Shown: positions 6,602 to 62,580 of the stretch, piece by piece | How positions within the stretch are numbered: position 1 is the first letter of the stretch | Layout: every line of letters starts with the position of its first letter | Assembly (NCBI GenBank): GCA_002496015.1 | Contig: DAIF01000014.1 | Span: 891-64,890 of the forward strand | DNA from: Candidatus Pacearchaeota archaeon UBA73 | Lineage (GTDB): Archaea > Nanobdellota > Nanobdellia > Pacearchaeales > GW2011-AR1 | Reading direction: 5' to 3' | Length of the DNA stretch: 64,000 nucleotides | The notes under the pieces: model-generated | The model's input: the letters and a program-made list of their open reading frames with translations, nothing else | What the model was told of the DNA's origin: nothing | Databases searched by the model: none | Made by a program: the position numbers and the translations under genes

Positions 6602-7552
6602 TTGATGAAGAAGAAAACTCGACCTAGACAACACGCAAGAAAAGCAGCAAGATTTTGCAGCATAAGGAGAGACCGTAACACTTATGTTGCCCGAGAAGAA
6701 TTCAAAGACCCCCTGCGGGGAGGCAAGCGTCCGGAAGACTTCCAAAAAGTAATTCCCGGAGAACAAATTTTCAGTGTGATTAGAGGAATTTTACGGGAAG
6801 GAAGAAACTATCTAATAGACACGTGCGCGCTGGAAGTCCCCAGAAAAAGTCTGTTTAAAGACTGCTCGGAACTAACGAATTACGCGGACAATGAAGCATA
6901 CCGAGCCGCAGCAGACCAGATGTGTCAGGAAATGAGAAAGTGTTCAGATTTTTGGGGAGAATTACTAACAAGAAAAGATGTGTTTATTCTCCCGGAGGTC
7001 GCTGAAGAAACAAGAAGATACCAAAGGATACTAAACTCCCATGCAAAGAAACTAAGAACTCGTGGCCTAAGACGAAAGCTTCTGGAGCCTGTCCACAGTT
7101 TAGTTAATAGTTTGGACTCTAATTCTTCCAGATTAGTCGACACAGGATTGCTGTCCGATCCCGTGATACCCAGAATAATGGAAATCCTAAGAGCCACTTC
7201 ACCTAGATACAGAAAACCTTTACCCTACACTGGCCAGAAGATAATCAGCTTCGCGATAGCATACGGCTTATCAAATGGTGGGACCCAAATCATAATAACC
7301 AGGAACCGCGCGATAAGAGAAGCGATGATTAATTTAAACGAAGACCTCGCGTCGGGAAGAAGGCATATCGATCTCTCAGATTTATGCCAAAGCTTTGAAC
7401 AGTTTAAAGTAATCCATAAAGTACTTCGCGCATTTCCTCCTTTCATATCAGATTATACTTTATGCATTGATGGGAATGATTTTCTCCGCGACTCGCCCTA
7501 CCAAAGAGATAGAAACACTCTACCTGCAACGACAAGTGCGGCAGCAGGATAG
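6602..7552 (+). CDS. Hypothetical protein
   Basis: A 316-aa ORF with a basic N-terminus and no assignable motif. Confidence 0.4.
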   Translation: MMKKKTRPRQHARKAARFCSIRRDRNTYVAREEFKDPLRGGKRPEDFQKVIPGEQIFSVIRGILREGRNYLIDTCALEVPRKSLFKDCSELTNYADNEAYRAAADQMCQEMRKCSDFWGELLTRKDVFILPEVAEETRRYQRILNSHAKKLRTRGLRRKLLEPVHSLVNSLDSNSSRLVDTGLLSDPVIPRIMEILRATSPRYRKPLPYTGQKIISFAIAYGLSNGGTQIIITRNRAIREAMINLNEDLASGRRHIDLSDLCQSFEQFKVIHKVLRAFPPFISDYTLCIDGNDFLRDSPYQRDRNTLPATTSAAAG

Positions 7553-7574: not shown

Positions 7575-8462
7575 TTACTGCTGCCTGGCATCAAGCAAAA
7601 CATTAATGATGCGAGTCATCTCTCCCAAAAAATCTTCAGCAGCCTCTTGCCACTGGTCAATCTCAGTGCCCTCAAGACGCACAACCTGCCGATGATTAAT
7701 TGATTTATGTAACGAATACAGCTCAGCCAGACTCTTCACATAGCTCATCTTAAGCATCCCAGCATCGACAAAAACATCTTTTAGCATCTCAGGAATATGT
7801 TCTGGAGAAGGAGGCATTCTGCCTGCAGTCATAAGGGCGGCCTGCGCAGAATCAACCATAGTCCAATAAACTCCCTCAATTGCGCTCATTGCAGCAATCC
7901 TGCTCCTCAACAAATGCATTGGAGCGCGCTGCAACGCCGCATTAACTGCCTCAGGTGTAGATTTTACTTTGCCCTTCAACAATAACGCTTTAAGAGGATT
8001 AAAGAAACCACCGTAATCTATTAACGCTTCACCATATCTCAAAATGTTTATCACAACCGGATCTCCATTGAGCATATCCTCCCACCACGTCGTAAGCTTA
8101 ACAGTATTTATATGAAGCTCAGCACTGTACTTTTGCTGAGAAACCAGCTTCGCCAATTCTTCTCGATACCACGCAACCAACTCTAAATCCCATTCAATTG
8201 CAGCATCATCAACAATAAGGATTATATCTATATCAGACCCTATAACTCCATCGCCCTTCGCCTGACTCCCAAAGAGAACTGAAGCCCTCACAACCCTGTC
8301 AAACTTCTTATGAACCTTCTCGGCAAAATCCATCGCCATATCTTTCTCTGTGACAAGTTTCCTCTCAGAAACCGACGAAGACGCCTGAACCTTCTCTACA
8401 GACTCCACTCGCTTCACATGCTTCACAGAAACTTTCTTCTTCACTCTCTTTTTTCTTGCCAT
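7575..8462 (-). CDS. Nucleotidyltransferase-domain protein with a C-terminal helical (HEPN-like) domain. Fused MNT-HEPN-type protein.
   Basis: The minimal nucleotidyltransferase signature LFGSQAKGDGVIGSDIDIILIV is followed by an all-helical C-terminal region of about 150 aa. Confidence 0.55.
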   Translation of the reverse strand: MARKKRVKKKVSVKHVKRVESVEKVQASSSVSERKLVTEKDMAMDFAEKVHKKFDRVVRASVLFGSQAKGDGVIGSDIDIILIVDDAAIEWDLELVAWYREELAKLVSQQKYSAELHINTVKLTTWWEDMLNGDPVVINILRYGEALIDYGGFFNPLKALLLKGKVKSTPEAVNAALQRAPMHLLRSRIAAMSAIEGVYWTMVDSAQAALMTAGRMPPSPEHIPEMLKDVFVDAGMLKMSYVKSLAELYSLHKSINHRQVVRLEGTEIDQWQEAAEDFLGEMTRIINVLLDARQQ

Positions 8463-8514
8463 ATTTTTACCACTTAAACTAAGTAGATTTTGTTTTTAAA
8501 TCTTCCCGCTCACT

Positions 8515-8648
8515 AGCTCTGTCCGAAGTTTTGATTTTTTCTAAAATTTGGATGGTGGGGGTGGAGTGGCTGCGAGTCGGGTTTTTCCTCGTAGAGGAAA
8601 TGTTAGTGGGGATTTGAAAAATCAAAACATACTAACTACGGACAGAGC
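8515..8648. mobile_element. MITE-like repeat, family A copy 1 (about 134 bp), with terminal inverted repeats AGCTCTGTCCG.../...CGGACAGAGC
   Basis: It is about 90% identical to 14698-14883 apart from an internal indel. The ends are inverted repeats, each containing TTTTGATTTTT / AAAAATCAAAA. Confidence 0.7.
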
Positions 8649-8652
8649 CCGC

Positions 8653-10569
8653 TCACTCCATCGGCGTCCCGCCAACCCGCGACCGCCCCGACATCTGCCC
8701 GCCCAATTCCTTTGGCATCCCGCTGAATCCTCCACCATACATAGAGAAATGCTGCTCGGGCAGCATCGTGCCATATCCATAAAAATAACCGCCGGAAGTC
8801 GCATACGCCTGATTCCAATACGGAGACATCTTCATCGAATATATCGGGCTGCCGAAAGATTTCAATGACTGCGCAAAAGGCGTTTGATTCCCAAAAGCCT
8901 GCGGTCCAAACCAATTTCCAGTTTCAATAATCTGCTTTATTTCTCCCATTCGTTTATTGTATTTCGCAATCGCTTCGTATTGTTTCTTCATATTAACATT
9001 TCCCATCCCCATAGGCAGCTCTGTATGTTCCATTCCAAAGTTATCAGAAAGATGTATCTTGTTCACAAACTTCCCGACCGTCTCCGCTTCCTTAGCCAAT
9101 TGCTCGTCTTCATATCCAAATTTACGAAGCATATTTATATGCCCCACATCCCACGTGACGCCAATCAGTTTCTCGGCTTGCCTTTTCGCATCACCCTCGG
9201 ACAAGTGTTCTTCCTTCATCAATTTCTCCTGTAGCTTCTTCTGTGATTTCTCGACAATCTCTCTCAAATCTTCCGCCCTGGCCAATCCGCTCCCCGCAGG
9301 AGGATTCTCAACACTGACAATCGGAGCAGAATCCTTAAATTTTTTATAAGAATTAAACGCAACATTCGCAAAAGTTTCCGAAGACTTTTCTATTCCAAAG
9401 TTCCTCAACGGAGTTAGCGTGCTGGGAGCATCAATTGATCTCAAGACATTAACCCCTTTAACCAAAGTATCTGACAGATTAGCAAGATTGACAGGATCCT
9501 CAATATTCGGAACAAGATTTTTTATTTCGTGCTTGAATTTCTTAAGTTTATCCAGGTCATCTTCTCGCCCGCTCTTCTCGGCAGCAATATAAGCTTGATT
9601 ATATAATCTCTGAAACGCCTGATAAGCATCCCTCAGATAAATATCCCCGTGCGCGAGTTCTTGCAACTGTTTCTCTACAACGAGCTTAAACGGCGCGCCA
9701 ACCGCCTCCAGCACCTTCTGCACATCCCGCCCCTTAAGATAATTTTTATACAACTCAAGCCACTGTTCTTCATTTGTATTCTCTTTCAGCCCCCTATCAA
9801 GCTTCTCTCCTTTAAGCACGCCACTCACTATTGATTGTCCTTGGTACGCATGAAAGGCACAGTTCTGCAACTGGTTAAACCATGTATCCTTGTTTTGCTT
9901 CTCAATCGCCGCCTTTATCGTGTCCCTCTGTTGATCAATACTACCAATCTTGCCATTGCTCTCCATTAAAAGATTCGGCGTCAGAGGCAAAGATTGGAAT
10001 TGGCCGTCATTTGAAACAACCCAAAATTCTTTAATTATTTCCTTCTTCTCCTTTTTCCCGGTCTCAGGATTCACAACCTCATCCAGAATTTTTGTTTCAG
10101 GATTCGGCAAGCCATTGCTTGAATGAAATGTCACAACAAGATTTCCCTTCGGATCCATCTTGTGCGCTCGCTCAACTGCCTGCCACATCTGCCTTTCTGA
10201 TTCTTCCCTATGGGCTTCGTTCCAACCCTGTCTCGTAACTCCGGTTGGCTCAACCAGTGGCCCGTGAAAAGTCAAATCAATCCCAACTAATTTTTTCAAT
10301 CGATGTATCTCTTCCAGATGCGGATCGGGAACGGTCTCCCAAGTCGCAGCAGTAACGCCGGAAACTTCAATTGTTTTAGCCCCAGTATTCAATTTGTCAG
10401 AAATGGCTTTTAGCTGATTAGCCGTTCGAGGATCCGACGGCAACCCGAAGTTCGAAGTCGAAACCCTGTACTGCGGAAACAACCCCGTAGAAAACTCGCT
10501 GGCATAATCCGGATTCAACCCATAATCCGCTCCAGCATAAAATGTATTTCCGTAACCATCTTTTCCCAT
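8653..10569 (-). CDS. Large hypothetical protein: xylose-isomerase/AP-endonuclease-2-like TIM barrel split by a helical insertion of about 280 aa, with a G/Y/S/M-rich C-terminal tail
   Basis: The N-terminal part (TIEVSGVTAATW...LTFHGPL...VVTFHSSNG) and the distal part (VTWDVGHINM...KIHLSDNFGMEHTELPMGMGNVN) together resemble one TIM barrel. The middle is coiled-coil-like, and the final 80 aa is low-complexity GGYFYGYG...GGGFSG. Confidence 0.45.
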   Translation of the reverse strand: MGKDGYGNTFYAGADYGLNPDYASEFSTGLFPQYRVSTSNFGLPSDPRTANQLKAISDKLNTGAKTIEVSGVTAATWETVPDPHLEEIHRLKKLVGIDLTFHGPLVEPTGVTRQGWNEAHREESERQMWQAVERAHKMDPKGNLVVTFHSSNGLPNPETKILDEVVNPETGKKEKKEIIKEFWVVSNDGQFQSLPLTPNLLMESNGKIGSIDQQRDTIKAAIEKQNKDTWFNQLQNCAFHAYQGQSIVSGVLKGEKLDRGLKENTNEEQWLELYKNYLKGRDVQKVLEAVGAPFKLVVEKQLQELAHGDIYLRDAYQAFQRLYNQAYIAAEKSGREDDLDKLKKFKHEIKNLVPNIEDPVNLANLSDTLVKGVNVLRSIDAPSTLTPLRNFGIEKSSETFANVAFNSYKKFKDSAPIVSVENPPAGSGLARAEDLREIVEKSQKKLQEKLMKEEHLSEGDAKRQAEKLIGVTWDVGHINMLRKFGYEDEQLAKEAETVGKFVNKIHLSDNFGMEHTELPMGMGNVNMKKQYEAIAKYNKRMGEIKQIIETGNWFGPQAFGNQTPFAQSLKSFGSPIYSMKMSPYWNQAYATSGGYFYGYGTMLPEQHFSMYGGGFSGMPKELGGQMSGRSRVGGTPME

Positions 10570-10641
10570 TCATAAAATAAGAAAAACCTTTATTTAAAGT
10601 CTGCGATAAATAAGTTCTGTTGAAGAATCAGAAACAAACAG

Positions 10642-11145
10642 TTAAATTTCCCAAGCATATCTCTTCGTCTTCCTGTGCCCGTCGGCAGATTCCATTCCGG
10701 TAGAATATTTCTTCTCGTCTTCCTGTCTCAACGAAGATTCTATCCGATTTGCCTCAGGATAACCGTTGGCTTGCGCACCCGTCGCAAAATCTCTTCCTAC
10801 TCCAACCGAACGAAGAGTCTGACCAGATTCGATATTCTCTGAGAGTTTATATTTCGGTCTGTTAGCATCATCCCCCATCCTTCTGCCAACATCATAAAGA
10901 TGAGCCGTAGGCGCTTCAGTTGTTGCCTCTTCGCGGGACGTTCTTCTAACAGGCACATCCGCAACAGCCCTCATTGGTCTGATGCCGTTTTCCACGGGTT
11001 GAAACCCTGTTCCCGCAGAGACCATCTCTGCTGCAGACTCGCTCTTAGTCAGCTCGCGGATTTCCTTGTCACCTTCAGATTCTCGCTTTATCTCTCGGAT
11101 TATCTTAACCTTATCCTTAATCTCCTTTATCTTCACATTTTTCAT
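10642..11145 (-). CDS. Hypothetical protein, charged and probably disordered
   Basis: A 167-aa ORF rich in E/K/R with no motif. It lies in the same orientation between two large unknown genes. Confidence 0.3.
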   Translation of the reverse strand: MKNVKIKEIKDKVKIIREIKRESEGDKEIRELTKSESAAEMVSAGTGFQPVENGIRPMRAVADVPVRRTSREEATTEAPTAHLYDVGRRMGDDANRPKYKLSENIESGQTLRSVGVGRDFATGAQANGYPEANRIESSLRQEDEKKYSTGMESADGHRKTKRYAWEI

Positions 11146-11175
11146 ATCAGAAAGAGGTCAAACAACTATATAAAT

Positions 11176-12726
11176 TTAAAGATTTATCGTCGGAGGAAAG
11201 GCAGGCATATCGTGCGCCTTCTTGTAAGTATCATAAATCTTCCTGCAATTCAACTTTGCCACAAGTATTGCCTGAGAACGAATTACTTCCTCCCAGAAAC
11301 TATCCTTCTTCAATCCCTTTGATTTATCAACCTTCTCCTCTTTCTTAGCAAATTCAAACAACGCAGAGAATGGATTCACATCATCACTGGGCTTAGAGGG
11401 TTCATTTGCCTTGCTCCCGCTCCAATTTATCTCTTTAGCATCACTCAGAAACTCGTCAATATCGTTCTTCATTTGCTCGATACTTTCAGTTGTCGCCCCT
11501 TCTATCATAGCAAAAACATCCCCGAAGTCGTCCTTGTCTATTTCAGCTTTCAAAACCGCAAGTTCATCCTTATTCAATGCAAACCCGGTAAAAGTCACTT
11601 CAACTCGTCCCCTAAAAGAATAACCTCCCTTCTGATCGCTCCTATCAGGAATACTCCTAAACTTAAATTCTATCAAAGTCATCGGAATGTACTCTCGAAG
11701 ATTCATCGACAAAACGCTCTTTGGCAACTCTCCCGTCGCAACATCTCTCTTAGGATCATATTTCCCTTGAGCCAGAATAACAAGTTCAAACACAGCAGTA
11801 TTGAAAGCATTAACTATATCTGGGTTCCATCTCGTGTCTCCTCCCGCGTTTTGCTCCAAGAACTTGGCTGCTCTGAAATACGGCTTCGCCCATCGCGCAT
11901 ACACCTTTAACGAATTTACCTGGCTCCTTAAATAAGCCCTTTCAATCTCATATCTCTTGATTAACTCTCTCTCAGATTCCTCAACCCACTTCAAATATTC
12001 CGAAACTCTCTGCTCAAGGATTCTCTTGACCCTATCGTTTAAATCCAGATTCTTCACATCTTCAAGTGAGTTAACGACAAAAAACGCATCCCTAAGTGTC
12101 ACATAATCGAAATTCTGGCTTAAACCCGCGATACTGGCGTTTCCCCTCCTCAAATCCACATTATCTATCCATATCTGTTTCAACGAAAGGACAGCAGCAT
12201 TACGCGTCCTTGGATCGCCCGAACGCAGTTCTTCATACTGCCTCAATCTCAACTTGAACTCCTTCAAATCATAAATTATCTGTATTATTGATTTCGTCAA
12301 GACTCCCGCGGTCTGCATCATCTTCATCGCTTCCTCCTGCATTCTCGTAGCTCTTCCTTGCATTTCAGCAAAGAACCCGCTCCCGGCAGAAGAAACAAAA
12401 TTATCAACAAGCTTCTCTGCCTTCCCATACAGATAATTTACATAGTCAAGTATCCAAAAATAAACTGGCTCAAGCGACTGCGAAAACGCATCATAAACCA
12501 ATGTATGCTGCTCAATAGGTGATTTTATGCCTTCTTTCTTAAGCGCGCCCTTTGTAGCCATAACATGAAGAACGTCGTGATAGCTAACTTCCTTAAGCTT
12601 CGCAACCTCCGCCGCCTTCAAATATCCTCCGCTCTTAAGGGCTTTATTCACATCGCCAACTTTCTCAGGATCGCAATAAACTTTAGGATTTATCGCTGCG
12701 ATTAAATTCTTTACGTCAACTGCCAT
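11176..12726 (-). CDS. Large hypothetical protein (516 aa), mostly alpha-helical
   Basis: A long ORF with uniform coding statistics and no signal peptide, TM segment, P-loop or other recognisable motif. Confidence 0.45.
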   Translation of the reverse strand: MAVDVKNLIAAINPKVYCDPEKVGDVNKALKSGGYLKAAEVAKLKEVSYHDVLHVMATKGALKKEGIKSPIEQHTLVYDAFSQSLEPVYFWILDYVNYLYGKAEKLVDNFVSSAGSGFFAEMQGRATRMQEEAMKMMQTAGVLTKSIIQIIYDLKEFKLRLRQYEELRSGDPRTRNAAVLSLKQIWIDNVDLRRGNASIAGLSQNFDYVTLRDAFFVVNSLEDVKNLDLNDRVKRILEQRVSEYLKWVEESERELIKRYEIERAYLRSQVNSLKVYARWAKPYFRAAKFLEQNAGGDTRWNPDIVNAFNTAVFELVILAQGKYDPKRDVATGELPKSVLSMNLREYIPMTLIEFKFRSIPDRSDQKGGYSFRGRVEVTFTGFALNKDELAVLKAEIDKDDFGDVFAMIEGATTESIEQMKNDIDEFLSDAKEINWSGSKANEPSKPSDDVNPFSALFEFAKKEEKVDKSKGLKKDSFWEEVIRSQAILVAKLNCRKIYDTYKKAHDMPAFPPTINL

Positions 12727-12799
12727 TTCATTTCACCTCTTTAGATTATATTTTATAAAATACACATCGAAAGTTAATAAAGATTTCGCGTCAAGTGCC

Positions 12800-12915
12800 C
12801 TGTCCAAAGTCTGTTGATTTTTCCAAACTTTGGGGGGATGGAGGGATGGTCGGGGCGAGCATGTTACGCGCCAGTAATGCAAAAGAATCTAGGCGCGTGG
12901 CTGCAAGCAGAGATT
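12800..12915. repeat. Partial or degenerate copy of the family A MITE-like repeat
   Basis: CCTGTCCAAAGTCTGTTGATTTTTCCAAACTTTGGGGGGATGGAGGGATGGTCGGGGCGAGC aligns with the 5' half of copies 8515-8648 and 14698-14883. Confidence 0.5.
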
Positions 12916-13235
12916 CGACGAAAATCGAAAATTGCAAGAAGAAATAAAGCTTACTTAAACTCAAAAGAGATTTACAAATACTTTGGTGATTAGTACAATT
13001 CAGCACTAAACCCCCCCACAAATATCAAACAACAGGTTAAAAATGCCTTCGTTTCTATAATTGAATCTAAATTCCATTTCTTTTAAGTAAAACAGATAAT
13101 TAGCCTTAGATTCCATAATCCTTATGGAATCTTTCTTTAGCATAACCCCAGAACCTTTCGATCCCATAGCAATACATTTTAGAAAATGCATGAACGTTGA
13201 TTGAACACAGATTTATAATCAATTTTCAATTCATC

Positions 13236-13724
13236 CTACCCTGGCGCTGGCGTACCCCCCGGTGGTGCATATTGAGTGCAATCAATTGTCACTGGAGGAC
13301 AAACCGCTCGTTCACCAGCATCACCCGTCACAATACCTGCAACACTAACTCTTCGAGGTGTCCCTGTCCCTGTCACCGTCCCTTCAAAGGTAACTGTTCC
13401 CAATGATGGACCAGCCGACTCTTCCATACTAGCAACACTAGCACCTGCCTCATTAACAACATCTGCAACTATAGACTGTGCTTCCCCACGCATATTTCTA
13501 ACTCGTACAGTCACGCTATCTGGAGACCCTACAGTCCAGATACAAGAAACTGGCTGAACATCAACACTAAAGCACTTCGTCCTCAAGTTAGTCTCCGAAG
13601 CAGCAGTATCAAAAGTAGGTCTCAAGAAACCCCAAACAATAGCAACAGCAGCAAGCGCTAAAAGCACTATAAGCACCGTAGCGACAATGTTACTCAATCC
13701 TCTTTTGTTTTTTCTTGTTATCAT
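13236..13724 (-). CDS. Class III signal peptide (archaeal type IV pilin-like) protein, paralog 2
   Basis: The N-terminus KNKRGLSNIVATVLIVLLALAAVAIVWGF is a basic stretch plus G plus a hydrophobic helix, as in prepilin-peptidase substrates. An SD-like GAGGT lies 6 nt upstream. It starts 10 nt after paralog 1. Confidence 0.7.
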   Translation of the reverse strand: MITRKNKRGLSNIVATVLIVLLALAAVAIVWGFLRPTFDTAASETNLRTKCFSVDVQPVSCIWTVGSPDSVTVRVRNMRGEAQSIVADVVNEAGASVASMEESAGPSLGTVTFEGTVTGTGTPRRVSVAGIVTGDAGERAVCPPVTIDCTQYAPPGGTPAPG

Positions 13725-13734
13725 TTTTTACCTC

Positions 13735-14193
13735 TTAATTGCAAGCCACCGCCACAGACTCTGGGCAAGTCTCTGTATTACCACTACCATCTCTAACCCT
13801 TGCAGCTACTCTTGCTATAAAGGGCGAAGCCGTCCCTATATCATTAACCTGAGTAGCCTGAGACCCTAGAGCTGTCGTTGGAGCAATTCCTTGAGAAACA
13901 TAAGTAATCCCATTATCATCTTCCACTACAGCAGCCACAGAATCCAAGGTAACCTCTGTAGGTACACTCGTCTTTAACTGATAAGCAACATTAGCAGTTG
14001 CTCCAGAAAGACTACACTGTGTTGGCTCAACAGTAACCAAGAAACATGCATTCCTCAATGAAGTTTGGGAAGCGGCATTATCAAAAGTAGGTCTCAAGAA
14101 ACCCCAAACAATAGCAACAGCAGCAAGCGCCAAAAGCACTATAAGCACCGTAGCGACGATGTCACTCAATCCTCTTTTGTTCATCATGTCCAT
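13735..14193 (-). CDS. Class III signal peptide (archaeal type IV pilin-like) protein, paralog 1
   Basis: Its N-terminus NKRGLSDIVATVLIVLLALAAVAIVWGF is nearly identical to paralog 2 at nucleotide level over about 110 nt. The C-terminal domain is unrelated. A TTTATAA element lies about 20 nt upstream of the start. Confidence 0.7.
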   Translation of the reverse strand: MDMMNKRGLSDIVATVLIVLLALAAVAIVWGFLRPTFDNAASQTSLRNACFLVTVEPTQCSLSGATANVAYQLKTSVPTEVTLDSVAAVVEDDNGITYVSQGIAPTTALGSQATQVNDIGTASPFIARVAARVRDGSGNTETCPESVAVACN

Positions 14194-14410: not shown

Positions 14411-15023
14411 CTAAAGCTCCCGCTCTAAATTAATTATCTCCGTCGTACTCCAAGTCCTGATCGCTCCTTGTTTCTTGAAATGTTCATCATCTGACCAAAT
14501 ACCATCGTTGGGAACAGAAAGAGCCAGCGCAACAAAAGGGACATCTTTCTCATCTACTTCCCCAATTATCTCTTCAGCTTCTTCCATTTTATGAGCATAC
14601 TTCTCTCTGTGAACAACTTCAATACTCTCTATCAATAAACCAAACAATGTCTCAAACTCCTCCTACGTCAATCCGGCTCTTTCAATTATTATTTTTCAGC
14701 TCTGTCCAGAGTTTTGATTTTTTCTAAAATTTGGATGGTGGGGCGGGTTAGCAAGGGCGAGCACGTTACGCGAGTGCAAAAGTTGATTAATTTCGAGCGT
14801 GGCTGCGAGCAGGGTTTTTCCTCGTAGAGGAAATGTTAGTGGGGATTTGAAAAATCAAAACATACTAACTCCGAAACAGAGCTGTTTTTTCATATTTTCT
14901 AATTTCAGAGATAAGTGTTTCAGGAGCATAAAGAATAAATGGCGAGTCAATAAGAAAATTTCGGGTCAGACCTTCCTTAAACATCCCTGAAAAGACAACA
15001 TTAGTATCAATGATAAAAATCAT
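14411..15023 (-). pseudogene. PIN-domain (VapC-like) toxin gene disrupted by a MITE insertion
   Basis: The N-terminal fragment (minus strand from 15023) reads MIFIIDTNVVFSGMFKEGLTRNFLIDSPFILYAPETLISEIRKYEKT and runs into the repeat, where it meets a stop. The C-terminal fragment (14647-14411) EEFETLFGLLIE...VPFVALALSVPNDGIWSDDEHF continues the alignment with the intact paralog at 15626-16033. Confidence 0.7.
14698..14883. mobile_element. MITE-like repeat, family A copy 2 (about 186 bp), inserted inside the PIN gene
   Basis: Its termini AGCTCTGTCC...GAAACAGAGCT are inverted repeats. The internal sequence matches 8515-8648 and 12800-12915, and the interrupted host ORF is visible on both flanks. 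Confidence 0.75.
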
Positions 15024-15035
15024 TTTCTATGATTC

Positions 15036-15254
15036 TCAGCAATCCCCCCCTCTAACAAGCTTATCTAATTCTTCAACATCTTTCTTTGTCAGCTTGGATT
15101 TATTAGCTATAGCATTCGCTATTCTTATCTTTCTGAGATGCTCAAGCAATGCCTTTCTGACGACCCCGCTCCAGTTAACCTCTCCGTGCCTCTTCATCTC
15201 TTCCTTCAAATCTTTCGGCACACTCAAAGTGATATTTTCCATATGTGTATACAC
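15036..15254 (-). CDS. Ribbon-helix-helix/CopG-like antitoxin (VapB-like) upstream of the disrupted PIN gene
   Basis: ENITLSVPKDLKEEMKRH is a typical RHH beta-strand and helix. It ends 12 nt before the PIN start. Confidence 0.55.
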   Translation of the reverse strand: MYTHMENITLSVPKDLKEEMKRHGEVNWSGVVRKALLEHLRKIRIANAIANKSKLTKKDVEELDKLVRGGDC

Positions 15255-15434: not shown

Positions 15435-15629
15435 ATGAGTGAAATCAAAATAGAAATCCCTGAAGAACTGAAAAGAAAAATAGAAACCAAAATAGGCCTG
15501 ACTCTCTTAGTTAAAAGACTAGTCAAGCACCTCGAAGAAGAACAAGAAATGATAGACTGGTCCGTAAAACTCCAGAGAACTGCAAGAAAAGGCAGATACA
15601 GAAAGCTTAAAGAAAAAGGATTGATATGA
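15435..15629 (+). CDS. Antitoxin-like small protein (VapB-like)
   Basis: A 64-aa ORF (SEIKIEIPEELKRKIE) that overlaps the downstream PIN gene by 4 nt (ATGA). Confidence 0.5.
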   Translation: MSEIKIEIPEELKRKIETKIGLTLLVKRLVKHLEEEQEMIDWSVKLQRTARKGRYRKLKEKGLI

Positions 15630-16033
15630 AAATAGTGGCAGATTCAAACATTTTATTTACTTTCTTTTGGAAAGACTCATTTACAAAGGGCATTCTCGTC
15701 GACCAAAATTTTGAATTTTTCGCTCCAGAAATAGCAATTCACGAAATAAAAAATAACAAACAAGAAATAACCAAAAAAACAAAATCTTCCGAAGAAGAAT
15801 TCAATTCGTTACTTGGAGAGTTAGCTATCTTTGTAGAGTTTATTCCCCTCGACGAATACATTGATAAGGTTAGTGAAGCAGACGTGATATCTGACAAAGA
15901 TGATATCGATTTCATCGCTCTCGCCCTCAAATTAAACTGTGAAATATGGTCAAACGATCCTCATCTAAAAGAACAAAACAAGGTAAAGGTTTATACCACT
16001 TCAGAATTTATCCAACACATCGAACAATCTTAA
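15626..16033 (+). CDS. PIN-domain ribonuclease (VapC-like toxin)
   Basis: It has the MKIVADSNIL acidic start, a conserved D in DIDFIALAL, and an ATGA overlap with the upstream small gene. Confidence 0.7.
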   Translation: MKIVADSNILFTFFWKDSFTKGILVDQNFEFFAPEIAIHEIKNNKQEITKKTKSSEEEFNSLLGELAIFVEFIPLDEYIDKVSEADVISDKDDIDFIALALKLNCEIWSNDPHLKEQNKVKVYTTSEFIQHIEQS

Positions 16034-37069: not shown

Positions 37070-39364
37070 TTATCCTGCGTAGAGTGGACCTGTCTCGAGA
37101 CCTGCTTTTGCGCGTTTGAGATAGTAATCTTCAATCTTCTTATAACGCTGAGCTGTCTCAGTCGAGACCGACGGCTTGACTTTTCTGAACGCCTCGTCGA
37201 TATCTTCCTTGGATACTTCTTTGGCTTCTTTGTCTTTTCGGAGTGCATTAAGCGCAGCCTCTCTAATAAGAGCTTCTATATCGGCTCCCACGTAACCTTC
37301 AGTTTGTTTTACCATGTCAAAAAGTTTCACATCCTTAGCCAATGGTGTGTTTTTTGTGTGGATTTTGAAGATTTCCATCCTCGATTCTTCGTCAGGGACA
37401 TCTGCCAAGATTATCCTGTCGAACCGGCCTGGACGCAAGAGCGCCGGGTCGAGCATGTCAGGGCGGTTGGTCGCGCCGATTATCGTGACGTCTTTTAGAC
37501 CTTCCAATCCATCGATTTCTGCAAGCAATTGGTTTAGAACTCTTTCAGTAACTTTGCTACCCTGCTCAATTCCGCGCTTTCCTGCGAGCGCATCTATTTC
37601 GTCGAAGAAAATCACACAAGGAGCAACTTGTCTTGCCCGCTCGAAAACTTTTCTTACACCTTCTTCTGATTTTCCGACCCACATGCTTAACAACGAAGGA
37701 CCTTTGACCTGAATGAAGTTTGCTTCTGATTCCTTAGCGACGGCTTTTGCGAGCAGAGTCTTTCCTGTTCCGGGAGGACCGTAAAGCAAAATGCCTCTTG
37801 GAGCGCGGATTCCGAGTCTTGCAAATGCTTCTGGTCTTTGTATTGGCCATTCCACAGCTTCCTTAAGTTCCTGTTTTGTTCTTTCCATTCCGCCGATGTC
37901 GTTCCAGCCGATGTTTGGCGCCTCGACGAAGACTTCTCTCATCGCACTTGGGCGGACTACCTTGAGCGCTTCTTCAAAATCTTCCAGCCGGATTATTGCC
38001 TTGTCCAGAACTTCCGGAGGAATTGGTTCCTCTTCTTCAAGCTTTAAAGAAGGAAGCATTTTTCTTAGGACGTTCATAGCAGCTTCTTTTGTCAGAGCTG
38101 AGAGGTCCGCGCCGACGAAGCCATGCGTGCGCGCTGCGAGATCTTCAAGATTTACATTTCTAGCGAGAGGCATATTTCTTGTATGAATTTTTAAGATGTC
38201 TAATCTGCCTTTTTTATCTGGAACAGAAATTTCAATCTCCCGATCAAACCTTCCCGGTCTGCGGAGTGCGGGATCAACCGAATTCACGCGATTCGTCGCG
38301 CCGATAACAATCACTTTTCCGCGGGATTTCAGACCGTCCATCATCGTCAATAATTGTGAGACAACTCTTCGTTCCACTTCGCCCTGAACATCTTCACGTT
38401 TCGGGGCTATCGCATCTATTTCGTCGAAGAAAATTATTGAAGGAGCATTTTTTTCAGCGTCTTCGAAAATGTCCCTGATCTTTTTTTCAGATTCGCCGTA
38501 GAATTTTGACATTACTTCCGGACCGTTAAGCAGGATGAAGTTTGCTTCTGATTCATTGGCTACGGCTTTTGCGAGCAGAGTCTTTCCTGTTCCGGGAGGA
38601 CCGTGGAGAAGAACACCTTTTGGAGGATCTATTCCCAGCTTCTGGAAAATCTCTGGGTGTTTGAGGGGAAGCTCGACCATTTCTCTTATTTTCTTAATCT
38701 CATCTTCCATGCCTCCGACGTCTTCGTAAGCGATGTCTGGGATAGCGTCGTCAGACACTTCAACAGATTTTGGATTGAGAATTATTTCAGTATCTTCATT
38801 GATGAAACAATGCTGTGCAGGGGTGGTGTTCACTACGACGAATCTTATCTGCTGGAAACTGCCTGGAAAACCATGGTTGAACAGGTCTTGGAGGTCTCCA
38901 AAGAAGTCCGGTAATCCTTCTCCGCCCATGAGGTCTTTTCGCCTCTGGACTCCGCCCAAAGAAATTATGTCCCCTTTAGTTATTGGTCTGCCGAGTAATC
39001 CGTTTCTAAGCATTTCGGGATCTGCCTGGACAGTAATGCCCTGCTGAGCTGGAGCAATAGCTACCTTTGTGGCGGGTTTGACTCCTGCTTTTTTTACCTC
39101 GACTTGTTCACCCACACTGACGCGCGCGTTTTTTCTTATAAGGCCGTCAATTCTGATTATGTTCTCGCCTACATCTGCAGGATAAGCGCGATCGACAATC
39201 GCGAGTGTTTCTCTTTGTCCCTTGATTGAGATTATGTCTCCTCTCGCCAGGCCCATTTCCCTCATTAGTTGAGGATCGATTCTTGCAACGCCCTTGTAAA
39301 CGTCGTCTTGTAAAGATTCAACTACCTTCAATCTTATTTGCGGGATGTTATTTAGTTTTACCAT
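37070..39364 (-). CDS. cdc48: CDC48/VCP-like AAA+ ATPase
   Basis: N-terminal CDC48 domain plus two AAA modules, each with [15 protein letters not shown] Walker A, DEID Walker B and second region of homology (SRH) motifs. Confidence 0.95.
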
Positions 39365-41406: not shown

Positions 41407-41565
41407 AGCTCTGTTGAAAAAGTAGGAACTGCAGGTTTATTAAAATTTGGGGCGAAGGGATTAGGAGGGACAGGGAGGGTTTTCGACTTGAGCAATACGA
41501 AAGTCGAATCCAAAGTGGGAATCTGAAACCTGCGCAAGAGAGATTTTCAACAGAACCCGCTGAAT
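41407..41565. mobile_element. Family B MITE-like repeat, complete copy with TIRs (GCTCTGTTGAAAA ... TTTTCAACAGAAC)
   Basis: The 5' end AAGCTCTGTTGAAAAAGTAGGAACTGCAGG is followed by the internal core AAAATTTGGGGCGAAGGGATTAGGAGGGACAGGGAGGGTTTTCGAC, which matches 62462-62510. The 3' end is an inverted copy. Confidence 0.65.
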
Positions 41566-55774: not shown

Positions 55775-55924
55775 GTGAAAATTAAGCATAAGAAGTATAT
55801 AAATCTTCGGATGCTTTCGTTTTGTCCGAAGCTGATTTTATGATTCCACAGACTTCGAATGCAACAAGAACCTTATCTGTTCCTCTAGTTATAATGTTCT
55901 CAGGGCTGTGCAAATCCCTCCCCA

Positions 55925-55985
55925 AATTTAGGTAAAACCAACAGACTCCGGACAAAGCCCTCGCCCCAAACATTTTATAAACTTT
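55925..55985. repeat. Repeat family fragment, reverse orientation
   Basis: The reverse complement AAAATGTTTGGGGCGAGGGCTTTGTCCGGAGTCTGTTGGTTTTACCTAAATTTGGGG matches 62445-62490 nearly base for base. Confidence 0.6.
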
Positions 55986-61800: not shown

Positions 61801-62465
61801 ATAAAAAGAGCATGATAATCATAAACTTCAAAAATTACGTTGCAGGGAAAAAATCCCTCGCTCTCGCAAAACTTATTGAAAAGCATTTCTCAAGGGCAAT
61901 CATCGCAGTTCCCGCGGTAGACATAAAAGAACTCCATGAAAAAACAAAACTCCGCATATTTGCCCAACACTTAGATGCAATTGACGGTCGCGCGACCGGC
62001 TTCCTCCTGCCTGAAACCGCAAGAGCTGTCGGAGCTTCCGGCACACTTCTAAACCATTCAGAACACCCACTGCCCTTCAGGATTCTAAAAACCGCGGTCT
62101 CAAGAACGCACAAAGCCGGACTAAAGATTGTAATCTGCGCACCTTCAATAAAAGAAGCAAAAAAACTCGCATCCCTCAAACCGGAAGCCATCGCATTTGA
62201 AGACCCAAAACTCATCGGCTCCGGCAAATCAATAACTGAATACCGCGCTGACGAAGTAAAAAAATTCGCCCAACTTTTCCGGCACTCAAAAATCGTCCCA
62301 CTATGCGGCGCAGGCATTAATAAAATTGAAGACGTCAAAGCTGCACACGACTTGGGCTGTCACGGCGTCTTGATCGCAAGCGCAATCGCCGCAGCTCCGC
62401 CAAAAAAAACAAAAGATTTTTTGAGAGAACTCGGGCTTTGTCCGGAGTCTGTTGGTTTTACCTAA
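61773..62465 (+). CDS. tpiA: Triosephosphate isomerase (archaeal short type)
   Basis: IIINFKNY start, catalytic His in LLNHSEH, catalytic Glu in AFEDPKLIGSG, and GAGI near the C-terminus. Confidence 0.9.
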   Translation: MGRKKILRANKKSMIIINFKNYVAGKKSLALAKLIEKHFSRAIIAVPAVDIKELHEKTKLRIFAQHLDAIDGRATGFLLPETARAVGASGTLLNHSEHPLPFRILKTAVSRTHKAGLKIVICAPSIKEAKKLASLKPEAIAFEDPKLIGSGKSITEYRADEVKKFAQLFRHSKIVPLCGAGINKIEDVKAAHDLGCHGVLIASAIAAAPPKKTKDFLRELGLCPESVGFT

Positions 62466-62580
62466 ATTTGGGGCGGGATGATTGGGGTGGACAGGGTGGG
62501 ATTCGACGACAGTCGAAGTCTGTGGGAATCGTAAAATCAACCGAAAAATCAACTCCGGACAAAGCCAGAACTCGCTAAAA
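62440..62580. repeat. Composite copy of the repeat family (GGCTTTGTCCGGAGTCTGTTGG... core plus GTCTGTGGGAATCGTAAAATCAA module)
   Basis: It contains modules that recur at 55925-55985 (reverse complement), 41445-41510, 6480-6510 (reverse complement) and 39875-39900. Confidence 0.6.

What the first reader, a model, noticed from the sequence alone, without database searches (positions are those of the whole stretch)
8653..12726. Co-oriented cluster of three orphan proteins, including a split TIM barrel with a G/Y-rich tail and a 516-aa all-helical protein
Three consecutive minus-strand genes (638, 167 and 516 aa) have no family I can name. The 638-aa protein appears to contain a xylose-isomerase-like TIM barrel. 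Its two halves (TIEVSGVTA...FHGPL...VTFHSSNG and VTWDVGHINM...KIHLSDNFGMEHTELPMGMG) are separated by a coiled-coil-like insertion of about 280 aa, and it ends in a low-complexity aromatic/glycine tail (GGYFYGYG...GGGFSGMP). The middle gene is highly charged and probably disordered. The cluster is bracketed by MITE copies at 8515-8648 and 12800-12915. Large lineage-specific proteins like these are where genuinely new biology tends to sit (structural, host-interaction or viral-origin modules). I cannot assign function from sequence.
Basis: inference. Interest (0 to 1): 0.6.

Follow-up and report, generated by a model that had tools for sequence, protein, structure and literature searches.

The report
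Conserved four-gene operon of Nanoarchaeia
The three "orphan" genes are really the first three genes of a four-gene operon kept in hundreds of ultra-small Pacearchaeota/Woesearchaeota genomes, pairing a split metal-binding TIM-barrel enzyme and a nucleotidyltransferase with two proteins that match nothing known, so it is a real, testable piece of unknown archaeal biology rather than a viral or genome-specific oddity.

Summary
The three minus-strand ORFs exist exactly as described. They are not orphans. The 638-aa protein (A) has at least 1158 homologue clusters and the 516-aa protein (C) at least 1990. All named hits come from Pacearchaeota, Woesearchaeota or Nanoarchaeota. The flanks are housekeeping genes. 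I found no relatives in IMG/VR or GenBank phages.

- **A** is a xylose-isomerase-like TIM barrel split after strand 4 by about 267 aa. It keeps ligand-type residues at all nine positions I matched, by motif, to the endonuclease IV metal ligands. Its Gly/Tyr tail is conserved.
- **B** is disordered but has conserved termini and three near-invariant tyrosines.
- **C** is alpha+beta, not all-helical. It has no Pfam, PDB or BFVD match.
- **The MITE at 8515-8648** is real (inverted repeats plus a 9-bp target duplication). It is a recent insertion between A and NT, not a cassette boundary.

My inferred reading is a cytoplasmic complex that combines nucleotidyl transfer with phosphodiester hydrolysis on a polymer, probably nucleic-acid ends. 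Function is unproven.

The parts
11176..12726 (-). Gene C, 516 aa. A Nanoarchaeia-wide family with no Pfam, PDB or viral-structure match. Predicted alpha+beta: strands at 72-81, 102-112, 311-320, 346-362 and 369-385; helices of 51-64 residues at 117-167 and 231-294; a disordered linker at 430-467 holding the conserved NPFSALF motif.
   Evidence: ORF. At least 1990 homologue clusters. 742 clusters at 50% identity. Relatives in at least 546 species-representative genomes. AF2 model with pLDDT 74 and pTM 0.57. No Foldseek hit in PDB below E 0.069, or in BFVD above TM 0.22. No Pfam family among 51 members beyond noise.
10642..11145 (-). Gene B, 167 aa. A basic, disordered protein whose position and length are conserved. 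It has an N-terminal K-I-K-E-I repeat motif (aa 1-22), three near-invariant tyrosines (Y84, Y99, Y147) and a C-terminal KKRR + [Y/M]PWE[A/I] motif (aa 158-167).
   Evidence: An ORF of about 160-200 aa lies between C and A in nearly all loci. Alignment. Motif counts are 45/51, 50/51 and 27/51. The Tyr columns hold 48, 47 and 44 of 48 sequences, against at most 11 in the shuffled middle region of six shuffle-and-realign controls. pI 9.0, GRAVY -1.0, no Cys.
8653..10569 (-). Gene A, 638 aa. A xylose-isomerase-like TIM barrel split into two half-barrels, with conserved disordered Gly/aromatic tails at both ends.
10123..10449 (-). A, first half-barrel (aa 41-149, strands 1-4). Carries the conserved E68, H102 and H149.
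   Evidence: AF2 strands. Conservation.
9322..10122 (-). A, insertion between barrel strands 4 and 5 (aa 150-416): a three-strand beta meander (158-195) plus a helical domain of about 200 aa (211-414).
   Evidence: AF2 secondary structure with pLDDT mostly 80-95. A weak function-unknown PHROG hit on aa 272-340. No homology to C.
8902..9321 (-). A, second half-barrel (aa 417-556, strands 5-8). Carries E421 (VENPP), D474/H477 (WDVGH), H506/D509 (IHLSDN), H515/E517 and E549 (IIETG).
   Evidence: Motif comparison with E. coli Nfo. Conservation in 64 orthologues.
8656..8901 (-). A, C-terminal tail (aa 557-638). Gly/Tyr/Phe-rich, predicted disordered, but conserved in sequence (consensus GGYFxGYGxxLPxxHFSxYGAGFSNLPxELGGQMxGRSRxSGxPME).
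   Evidence: pLDDT below 50 from residue 575. Invariant W585, Y595, G598, G600, P604, G612, P619, L622-G624, G628 and G634. Conservation track.
7575..8462 (-). Gene NT, 295 aa. It has a Pol-beta-type (MNT-like) nucleotidyltransferase domain with a conserved GS...SDIDI motif, a Lys-rich N-terminal tail, and a helical C-terminal half that JGI names UPF0332/HEPN-like.
   Evidence: PF01909 scores 29.7 bits against a cutoff of 21. At least 2997 homologues, with JGI names. It follows A on the same strand in 48 of 54 informative loci. Conservation. The best PDB sequence matches are MNT-type nucleotidyltransferases.
8515..8648 (.). MITE, 134 bp. Terminal inverted repeats at 8516-8540 and 8624-8648. 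A 9-bp target-site duplication CCGCTCACT at 8506-8514 and 8649-8657; the right copy overlaps A's stop codon. It is inserted between A and NT.
   Evidence: Sequence. Inverted repeats. A 96% identical copy at 14698-14884. Family alignment.
12797..12935 (.). A related MITE-like element upstream of C. It shares the left end (CTGTCC..AGT.TGTTGATTTTT..AAA.TTTGG) with copies at 55921-55955 (-) and 62438-62472. No right-hand inverted repeat was found.
12727..12790 (-). Upstream region of C. It holds AT-rich TATA-like boxes (TTTATAAAA, CTTTATTAAC) and a GAGGTGA Shine-Dalgarno-like sequence directly before the ATG. This is the probable operon promoter.
   Evidence: Read directly from the sequence. Not tested further.

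Best explanation
Shown: the three genes are the first three of a four-gene chromosomal operon, C-B-A-NT. Its sequence and order are conserved across Pacearchaeota/Woesearchaeota (the GTDB Nanoarchaeia). All four products look like soluble cytoplasmic proteins.

Inferred: they act as one complex.
- A is the catalytic core. It is a xylose-isomerase-like TIM barrel whose conserved residues at the strand ends fill the same nine positions as the three-metal site of endonuclease IV. That points to metal-dependent phosphodiester chemistry. Its inserted helical domain and its conserved Gly/Tyr tails would serve as docking surfaces.
- NT is an MNT/kanamycin-nucleotidyltransferase-like enzyme with a Lys-rich tail. 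It would supply nucleotidyl transfer.
- B is a basic disordered protein with conserved ends and three invariant tyrosines. It would be a flexible tether or a substrate.
- C is a lineage-specific protein of unrecognised fold. It would be the scaffold or effector.

Most likely substrate, the weakest step: ends of nucleic acids (processing, repair or salvage of RNA or DNA ends).
For: **Not orphan, not mobile**
- Homologue clusters number at least 1158 for A, 1990 for C and 2997 for NT. All named ones are Pacearchaeota, Woesearchaeota or Nanoarchaeota.
- C relatives occur in at least 546 species-representative genomes.

**Synteny**
- Of 68 loci with at least 3 kb downstream of C, 61 contain A. In 57 of them A is on the same strand within 2.6 kb (median gap 725 bp), and the gap holds a B-like ORF.
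- NT follows A on the same strand in 48 of 54 loci.
- Even very divergent C relatives (181 and 375 bits) keep the C-B-A-NT order, and in the most divergent locus (L082) the gaps between genes are only 2-6 bp, which suggests co-translation.
- Removing the MITE and one copy of its target duplication leaves A and NT about 47 bp apart in this window.

**A looks like an active metalloenzyme**
- The fold is confirmed.
- H102, H149, E421, D474, H477, H506, H515, E517 and E549 sit at the C-terminal ends of strands 3-8 or in the following loop.
- Motif by motif they line up with E. coli Nfo H69, H109, E145, D179, H182, H216, D229, H231 and E261.
- They are conserved in 64 orthologues. Position 515 is H in 55 and D in 9. 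Position 517 is E in 58, D in 3 and H in 3, so some orthologues approach Nfo's D-x-H.
- Kiyonari et al. 2009 (PMC2770678, Table 1) list the closest solved relative, MJ1311, as a predicted EndoIV homologue.

**NT**
- PF01909 scores above its cutoff, and the GS...SDID motif is invariant.

**Hints of a nucleic-acid substrate**
- NT has Lys-rich N-terminal tails, which are much longer in some orthologues.
- B is basic with KIKEI and KKRR ends.
- A's tail contains a GRSR segment.

**Location**
- None of the four proteins has a transmembrane or signal segment.
Against: - Nothing here shows physical interaction, metal binding or any activity.
- The closest structural neighbours of A are sugar 3-epimerases as much as endonuclease IV.
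- hhalign of the A family against E. coli Nfo gives no signal. No NCBIfam model, including any for nfo, matches A.
- The nine-ligand correspondence rests on motif and strand order, not on a superposition. The Nfo ligand numbering is from my own knowledge.
- No nucleic-acid-binding domain is detected by Pfam in any of the four proteins.
- In one subclade C lies away from A and NT (loci L006, L007, L010, L011, L085). Co-transcription is therefore not obligatory.
- The model does not explain the three invariant tyrosines of B.
Confidence: 0.35

Rival explanations
1. A tyrosine nucleotidylation cycle on protein B. NT, an MNT-like enzyme, attaches AMP or UMP to the three invariant tyrosines of B, and perhaps to the Tyr-rich tails of A. 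A, with a phosphodiesterase-type metal site, removes it. C is the regulated partner. The analogues are MntA acting on a HepT tyrosine, and GlnD/GlnE acting on PII and glutamine synthetase.
For: - Three Tyr columns hold 48, 47 and 44 of 48 sequences in an otherwise unconserved disordered protein. Shuffled controls give at most 11 in the shuffled region.
- NT's best characterised matches are MNT/MntA-type adenylyltransferases: NCBIfam MntA at 23 bits, and PDB 9xbd and 8xeh.
- A-NT is the most stable adjacency in the block.
- A's disordered tails carry conserved Tyr at Y11, Y16, Y595 and Y611.
- The MntA and GlnD/GlnE precedents are from my own knowledge.
Against: - The MntA model score is far below its cutoff (23 against 60).
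- The region that would hold the HEPN Rx4-6H motif is not conserved.
- No TIM-barrel enzyme is known to me that removes nucleotides from protein tyrosines.
- The residues flanking the tyrosines are variable.
- Conserved tyrosines could equally be docking anchors.
Confidence: 0.15
2. Small-molecule (sugar or nucleotide-sugar-like) metabolism. A is a ketose or sugar-phosphate isomerase or epimerase. NT is a kanamycin-nucleotidyltransferase-like enzyme that nucleotidylates a hydroxyl group of a small molecule. C and B are unrelated neighbours or regulators.
For: - The top Foldseek hits are MJ1311 ('D-tagatose 3-epimerase-like'), D-psicose/tagatose 3-epimerases, UlaE and UxuA.
- JGI names family members 'sugar phosphate isomerase/epimerase'.
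- NT has weak NCBIfam hits to ANT(4')-I and Lnu(G), both two-domain small-molecule nucleotidyltransferases.
Against: - The two extra conserved histidines in the first half-barrel (H102, H149), together with H477 and H515, exceed the E-D-H-E set that sugar epimerases need. That point is my own knowledge of D-psicose and D-tagatose 3-epimerases.
- This reading does not explain the tight, order-wide linkage to a 516-aa non-enzyme-like protein and a disordered protein, the 267-aa insertion, or the conserved disordered tails.
- Pacearchaeota genomes are reported to lack most biosynthesis (PMC11537232).
Confidence: 0.15
3. An MNIO-like peptide- or protein-modifying system. A acts as a multinuclear iron oxidase, like DUF692 enzymes such as MbnB and TglH. 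B is its ribosomal substrate and C is the partner protein.
For: - To my knowledge, MNIOs are xylose-isomerase-like TIM barrels with a ligand pattern like endonuclease IV. They are encoded next to a precursor and a partner protein.
- TglHI appears among the Foldseek hits (8hci_B, probability 0.96, partial).
- The gene order partner-substrate-enzyme fits.
- B has conserved aromatic residues.
Against: - Pfam DUF692 is not matched even at E up to 1.
- B has no cysteine, the usual MNIO target.
- B is 160-200 aa long and universally conserved, which is unlike natural-product clusters.
- MNIOs need O2, and many of these archaea live in anoxic groundwater.
- The model has no role for NT.
Confidence: 0.07
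4. A structural, cytoskeletal or condensate-forming assembly. C polymerises through its long helices. B and the Gly/Tyr tails of A supply multivalent aromatic 'stickers'. The barrel has become mainly a structural module.
For: - Conservation is very high for proteins of unknown function: mean column identity 58% for C and 50% for A.
- C has helices of 51-64 residues.
- A and B have conserved disordered regions rich in aromatic residues.
Against: - The conserved metal-ligand residues in A argue that it is a working enzyme.
- No similarity to any known cytoskeletal or shell protein turned up in PDB or BFVD.
- This reading gives no role to a conserved, apparently active nucleotidyltransferase.
Confidence: 0.1
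5. A mobile, viral or defence cassette bracketed by MITEs.
For: - MITE-like elements lie on both sides of the three genes.
- There is a weak function-unknown PHROG hit on A (E 2e-4).
- The NT domain alone resembles candidate defence nucleotidyltransferases in PADLOC.
Against: - The same gene block sits at the same chromosomal place, next to tRNA synthetases, ribosomal proteins and PPDK, in dozens of species that lack these MITEs.
- No relatives occur in IMG/VR or in GenBank phages.
- PADLOC gives no hit for A, B or C.
- The 8515-8648 MITE carries its own target duplication and splits the conserved A-NT pair.
- The two flanking elements belong to different subfamilies.
Confidence: 0.02

Closest known systems
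MJ1311 of Methanocaldococcus jannaschii (PDB 3wqo, 'D-tagatose 3-epimerase-like protein'; listed as a predicted EndoIV homologue in PMC2770678)
   Same: It is the best sequence match (E 0.011 with one sequence, 2.3e-4 with a profile) and the best structural match (Foldseek E 4.8e-4, target TM 0.69). The D-x-G-H, H-x-H-D-N and D/E-H...G-x-G-N motifs of the second half-barrel are shared.
   Different: MJ1311 is a compact barrel of 293 aa. A carries a 267-aa insertion after strand 4, conserved disordered tails of about 40 and 80 aa, and a fixed operon context. Only the second half of the barrel aligns by sequence.
Endonuclease IV (Nfo/Apn1), a three-metal AP endonuclease and 3'-repair diesterase
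   Same: It has the same TIM-barrel superfamily fold (Foldseek 8edd, 1xp3 and 3aal at target TM 0.60-0.62). Ligand-type residues fill all nine positions matched by motif to the Nfo ligands, and they are conserved.
   Different: There is no sequence-profile relationship (hhalign probability 1%; no NCBIfam hit). The D229/H231 pair is mostly H/E here. The loop after strand 7 is shorter. The insertion and tails are absent from Nfo. DNA-binding features could not be assessed.
Ketose 3-epimerases, UlaE and UxuA (xylose-isomerase-like sugar enzymes)
   Same: They share the fold and the E-D-H-E core. Their Foldseek E-values fall in the same range as the endonuclease IV hits. To my knowledge UxuA also carries an inserted domain.
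   Different: A has additional conserved histidines in strands 3 and 4 and in the loops after strands 6 and 7. It lies in no sugar-pathway context. It is linked to non-metabolic proteins.
MNT / kanamycin-nucleotidyltransferase-like two-domain nucleotidyltransferases and MNT-HEPN pairs (type VII toxin-antitoxin MntA/HepT)
   Same: NT has the minimal Pol-beta nucleotidyltransferase motif and a helical second half that JGI calls UPF0332/HEPN-like.
   Different: NT is a fused single chain, 53-83% identical across the lineage, and fixed next to A. It does not show the patchy distribution of toxin-antitoxin genes. It scores below the MntA cutoff. The expected HEPN catalytic region is not conserved.
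Lineage-specific DPANN protein-family modules (Castelle et al. 2021, PMC8204110), including module 98 shared by Woesearchaeota and Pacearchaeota
   Same: The taxonomic restriction is the same, and so is the lack of annotation. That paper reports that most such families have poor or no functional prediction.
   Different: The paper describes presence and absence of families. It does not describe this operon, its architecture, the metal site or the features of B. I could not find these families in its held supplements.

Membership tests
Xylose isomerase-like TIM barrel (Pfam PF01261, AP_endonuc_2) | An eight-stranded (beta/alpha)8 barrel of this superfamily | tested here: met
   AF2 places eight barrel strands with pLDDT mostly above 90. 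Foldseek gives probability 1.00 and target TM 0.6-0.69 to many members.
Xylose isomerase-like TIM barrel (Pfam PF01261, AP_endonuc_2) | A score above Pfam's gathering threshold | tested here: inconclusive
   The window protein scores 31.0 bits against a cutoff of 31.1, on residues 467-537 only. Most family members carry a precomputed PF01261 hit.
Xylose isomerase-like TIM barrel (Pfam PF01261, AP_endonuc_2) | The Glu-Asp-His-Glu metal site at strands 5-8 | tested here: met
   E421, D474, H506 and E549 are identical in all 64 orthologues and sit at strand ends.
Endonuclease IV (Nfo) family | Nine ligands of a three-metal site (H, H, E, D, H, H, D, H, E in strand order) | tested here: inconclusive
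   All nine positions hold conserved ligand-type residues by motif and strand order. The match rests on no structural superposition or metal analysis, and two positions are swapped (D to H, H to E).
Endonuclease IV (Nfo) family | Recognisable by family sequence models | tested here: not met
   No NCBIfam family matches at E up to 1. hhalign of the family against E. coli Nfo gives probability 1%.
Endonuclease IV (Nfo) family | AP-endonuclease or 3'-diesterase activity on DNA | not testable with these tools
   This needs a biochemical assay.
MNIO / DUF692 peptide-modifying iron enzymes | A match to the DUF692 family model | tested here: not met
   DUF692 is not among the Pfam hits at E up to 1.
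MNIO / DUF692 peptide-modifying iron enzymes | An adjacent precursor peptide with a target residue (usually Cys) | tested here: not met
   B is adjacent, but it is 160-200 aa long and has no Cys.
MNT-HEPN (type VII toxin-antitoxin) | A minimal nucleotidyltransferase with the GS...DxD motif | tested here: met
   PF01909 scores 29.7 bits against a cutoff of 21. G65, S66, S76, D77 and D79 are invariant.
MNT-HEPN (type VII toxin-antitoxin) | A match to the MntA equivalog model | tested here: not met
   The NCBIfam MntA model scores 23.2 bits against a cutoff of 60.
MNT-HEPN (type VII toxin-antitoxin) | A HEPN partner with a conserved Rx4-6H motif | tested here: not met
   The last 60 residues of NT, where the motif would lie, are poorly conserved.
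MNT-HEPN (type VII toxin-antitoxin) | A patchy, mobile distribution | tested here: not met
   The gene is fixed next to A in 48 of 54 loci, at 53-83% identity.
MITE (the element at 8515-8648) | Short, non-coding, with terminal inverted repeats, a target-site duplication and several copies | tested here: met
   The element is 134 bp. It has 25-nt inverted repeats that are 80% complementary and a 9-bp target duplication. A 96% identical copy exists, and related copies lie at four more sites. One copy splits a PIN gene.
Provirus or viral module | Relatives on viral contigs | tested here: not met
   IMG/VR scans for A and C found no relative. GenBank phage tblastn gave no match.
Provirus or viral module | Viral hallmark genes in the flanks | tested here: not met
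   The flanks are housekeeping genes.
Orphan (ORFan) genes | No homologues outside the genome or its close relatives | tested here: not met
   Thousands of homologue clusters at 40-97% identity, spread across hundreds of species.

The most novel reading that the evidence does not exclude
C-B-A-NT encodes a previously undescribed cytoplasmic machine of Nanoarchaeia. A novel-fold protein (C) and a disordered tyrosine-bearing protein (B) organise a three-metal TIM-barrel phosphodiesterase and a nucleotidyltransferase into a write-and-erase cycle. The cycle would act either as reversible nucleotidylation of B's three invariant tyrosines or as protein-linked processing of nucleic-acid ends. Such a system would have no counterpart in other archaea or in bacteria.
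Probability: 0.25. Interest if true: 0.8.

Novelty: new variant of a known kind. Interest (0 to 1): 0.58.

Why it matters
Pacearchaeota and Woesearchaeota are uncultivated archaea with genomes below about 1 Mb that have shed most biosynthesis. A 4.3-kb operon kept at 45-80% identity and in fixed order across hundreds of such species is therefore very likely important to them. Yet two of its four products match nothing known.

The work turns a vague group of "hypothetical proteins" into a defined object with testable parts:
- a split barrel with a specific set of nine candidate metal ligands;
- a nucleotidyltransferase;
- a disordered protein with three exact tyrosines to mutate;
- a candidate novel fold.

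All four are soluble and could be expressed heterologously. The insertion sits exactly at the half-barrel boundary, which also makes it a useful natural case for studies of TIM-barrel evolution.

Tried and rejected
**Family and structure searches**
- Pfam, PHROGs, NCBIfam and PADLOC scans of A, B and C gave only the borderline barrel hit and noise.
- Scanning all 51 members of the C alignment against Pfam gave only a weak PilN hit in 6 of 51 (best E 0.03). I treat that as noise.
- A PDB sequence search with the C profile found nothing.
- Foldseek of the C model against PDB and BFVD found no credible match. The START-like, Cyt-toxin, STAT and levivirus maturation-protein hits all have TM at or below 0.22.

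**Profile comparisons**
- hhalign of A against E. coli Nfo gave no signal.
- hhalign of A against C showed no shared domain.
- tblastn of Nfo against the 1.27 Mb of held Nanoarchaeia DNA gave nothing. This is uninformative.

**Context and distribution**
- Viral origin is rejected.
- I looked for a fifth conserved gene downstream of NT. The opposite-strand genes there are not homologous to each other.
- Longer NT variants have only Lys-rich low-complexity extensions and no informative fused domain.
- The Rfam scan of the region and the MITEs gave nothing.

**Literature**
- The DPANN protein-family paper and a Pacearchaeota metaproteome paper carry no information on these genes. The relevant supplementary tables were not held.
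- I found no paper linking DPANN to endonuclease IV.

Full report
**1. The observation**

All the overlapping plus-strand ORFs are shorter, and the conservation described below supports only the minus-strand frames.

The window comes from an archaeon of the Pacearchaeota/Woesearchaeota group. The nearest contigs carry proteins 96-97% identical (P0001, P0121, P0403). The nearest named genome is a Pacearchaeota MAG with 78% identity for A and C.

**2. They are not orphans**

- A has at least 1158 homologue clusters, full length, at 45-96% identity.
- C has at least 1990. It also has 742 clusters at the 50% level in an exhaustive HMMER search and relatives in at least 546 species-representative genomes.
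- Every named hit is Pacearchaeota, Woesearchaeota, Nanoarchaeota or Nanoarchaeia.
- Mean column identity across 51 diverse members is 50% for A and 58% for C.

**3. The unit is a four-gene operon**

I ran tblastn on 82 loci fetched around C relatives.
- Of 68 loci with at least 3 kb downstream of C, 61 contain A. In 57 of them A is on the same strand within 2.6 kb (median gap 725 bp).
- That gap almost always holds one ORF of 160-200 aa.
- Downstream of A, 48 of 54 informative loci have a homologue of window gene 7575-8462 (NT) on the same strand.
- Very divergent C relatives (181 and 375 bits) still sit in C-B-A-NT blocks, and in the most divergent one (L082) the gaps between genes are only 2-6 bp. 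Their neighbours are GluRS/GlnRS, ribosomal proteins L16 and L35Ae, PPDK and FtsZ.
- In one subclade C has become unlinked from A and NT, yet the genome keeps both.
- No fifth conserved gene was found.

**4. The MITEs**

The element at 8515-8648 is a genuine MITE.
- It has 25-nt terminal inverted repeats and a 9-bp target-site duplication (CCGCTCACT at 8506-8514 and 8649-8657). The right copy overlaps A's stop codon.
- A 96% identical but longer copy lies at 14698-14884. That copy splits a PIN-domain gene.
- The element at about 12797-12935 shares only the left end with this family and lacks a right inverted repeat.

Removing the MITE and one copy of its target duplication leaves A and NT about 47 bp apart, as in other genomes. 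The MITEs are therefore recent insertions into an old operon, not cassette boundaries.

**5. No viral signal**

- IMG/VR scans with the A and C profiles found no relative.
- tblastn against GenBank phages found none.
- PADLOC matched none of A, B or C.
- The only PHROG hit is one weak function-unknown family on A's insertion.

**6. Protein A**

*Fold.*
- Pfam AP_endonuc_2 is borderline, at 31.0 against 31.1 bits.
- The family profile finds MJ1311 (3wqo) at E 2.3e-4.
- The AF2 model (pLDDT 79, pTM 0.77) has strands 1-4 at residues 41-149 and strands 5-8 at 417-548. The insertion between them is a beta meander (158-195) followed by about 200 aa of helices (211-414). Both termini are disordered (1-25 and 575-638).
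- Foldseek matches 3wqo, D-psicose/tagatose 3-epimerases, UlaE, UxuA and endonuclease IV at probability 1.00 and target TM 0.6-0.69.

*Metal site.* I compared local motifs with E. coli Nfo. The Nfo ligand numbers come from my own knowledge, which agrees with the 'nine residues' mentioned in PMC2770678.

| Nfo motif | Nfo ligand(s) | A motif | A residue(s) |
|---|---|---|---|
| ILPH | H69 | LTFH | H102 |
| NFHPG | H109 | TFHSS | H149 |
| IENT | E145 | VENPP | E421 |
| IDTCH | D179, H182 | WDVGH | D474, H477 |
| MHLND | H216 | IHLSDN | H506 |
| DRHHSLGEGNI | D229, H231 | EHTELPMGMGNV | H515, E517 |
| LILET | E261 | IIETG | E549 |

All nine A residues sit at strand ends or in the loop after strand 7. 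In 64 orthologues they are invariant or vary only among ligand-type residues, with single exceptions: one N at position 149; position 515 is H in 55 and D in 9; position 517 is E in 58, D in 3 and H in 3.

To my knowledge, sugar epimerases need only the E-D-H-E subset. This suggests a two- or three-metal site, but it rests on motif-level inference. Profile methods do not link A to Nfo.

*Tail.* The Gly/Tyr tail is predicted disordered yet conserved in sequence, as is the N-terminal tail. That pattern is typical of docking segments.

**7. Protein B**

B is basic (pI 9.0), very hydrophilic and has no Cys. Its middle varies in sequence and length. It is not featureless, however.
- 45 of 51 positional orthologues start with K-I-K-E-I-type repeats.
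- 50 of 51 end with a KKRR run.
- 27 of 51 end with [Y/M]PWE[A/I].
- Three tyrosine columns (Y84, Y99, Y147) hold 48, 47 and 44 of 48 sequences. After shuffling the middle region and realigning, no column in that region exceeds 11 of 48.

I cannot explain these tyrosines with certainty.

**8. Protein C**

The AF2 model (pLDDT 74, pTM 0.57) is alpha+beta. It has five long strands, helices of 51 and 64 residues, and a disordered linker carrying a conserved NPFSALF motif before a basic C-terminal helix. It is not 'all-helical'.

**9. Protein NT**

NT is a Pol-beta-type nucleotidyltransferase. PF01909 scores above its cutoff and the GS...SDIDI motif is invariant. JGI calls its helical second half UPF0332/HEPN-like, but the expected catalytic region is not conserved. 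It has a Lys-rich N-terminal tail, which extends to 150-200 aa in some orthologues. At 53-83% identity it is the best-conserved gene of the block.

**10. Interpretation**

All four proteins lack membrane or signal segments. The short or near-absent gaps between genes, the strict order and the conserved disordered docking-type segments lead me to infer a stoichiometric cytoplasmic complex.

Its chemistry is most simply read from the two enzymes: nucleotidyl transfer by NT and metal-dependent phosphodiester hydrolysis by A. The basic tails point to nucleic acid as the substrate. I give this reading about 0.35.

The main alternatives are:
- a tyrosine nucleotidylation cycle on B (0.15), which best explains the invariant tyrosines;
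- small-molecule sugar chemistry (0.15);
- a structural or condensate role (0.10);
- an MNIO-like protein modification (0.07);
- a mobile or viral cassette (0.02), which is effectively excluded.

**11. Novelty**

A DPANN protein-family survey noted Woesearchaeota/Pacearchaeota-specific modules without functional prediction (PMC8204110). I found no description of this operon, the split barrel, B's features or C.

A and NT are new variants of known superfamilies. C and B have no known relatives. As a system it has no described counterpart, but without a demonstrated mechanism I classify it conservatively.

Noticed in passing
window 14411-15035 (minus strand) with the MITE at 14698-14884: A PIN_2 (VapC-like) toxin gene is split by a MITE copy. 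Its N-terminal part lies at 15023-14898. Its C-terminal part lies at 14689-14432 and contains an internal stop. An RHH-like antitoxin ORF lies upstream at 15036-15254. This shows the MITE family has been active in this genome.
   Followed up: yes
window 41436-41482, 55820-55960 (-), 62433-62560, 12797-12935, 8515-8648, 14698-14884: At least six copies of a family of 110-190-bp elements share the ends GCTCTGTCCGRAGT...ACTYCGGACARAGC and G-rich internal tracts. Two subfamilies are visible. There is no Rfam match.
   Followed up: partly
window 6602-7552 (+): A 316-aa ORF with a TTG start lies between NT and pheT. It has no Pfam or NCBIfam hit and no homologue in any of the 80+ related loci. In the closest relative (L002) NT and pheT are only 125 bp apart. 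This roughly 1.1-kb segment therefore looks like a genome-specific insertion and is a truer 'orphan' than the three flagged genes.
   Followed up: partly
window 13236-13724 and 13735-14193 (-): Two tandem paralogous genes encode archaeal type IV pilin-like proteins with class III signal peptides (TIGR02537 N-terminal domain, weak UpsA hits). They share a 159-nt repeat at 85% identity. Similar genes lie 3-5 kb upstream of C in most related genomes, probably through general genome collinearity.
   Followed up: partly
P0439, P0490 (NT orthologues from other genomes): Some NT orthologues carry N-terminal extensions of 150-200 aa that are Lys-rich. These include a segment (S-x-Y-N-x-F-V-K-x-Q-M-D-x-G-K-T-M...W-K-x-H-K) that looks to me like half of an HMG-box or YABBY-type DNA-binding helix. 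Pfam does not call it.
   Followed up: no
window 15435-16033 (+): An intact small toxin-antitoxin-like pair: a 64-aa ORF overlapping the start of a 135-aa PIN_2 domain protein (E 1.6e-20).
   Followed up: partly
window 37070-39364 (-): A 764-aa ORF contains an internal 119-nt direct repeat at 82% identity, with copies 822 nt apart. I did not examine it.
   Followed up: no
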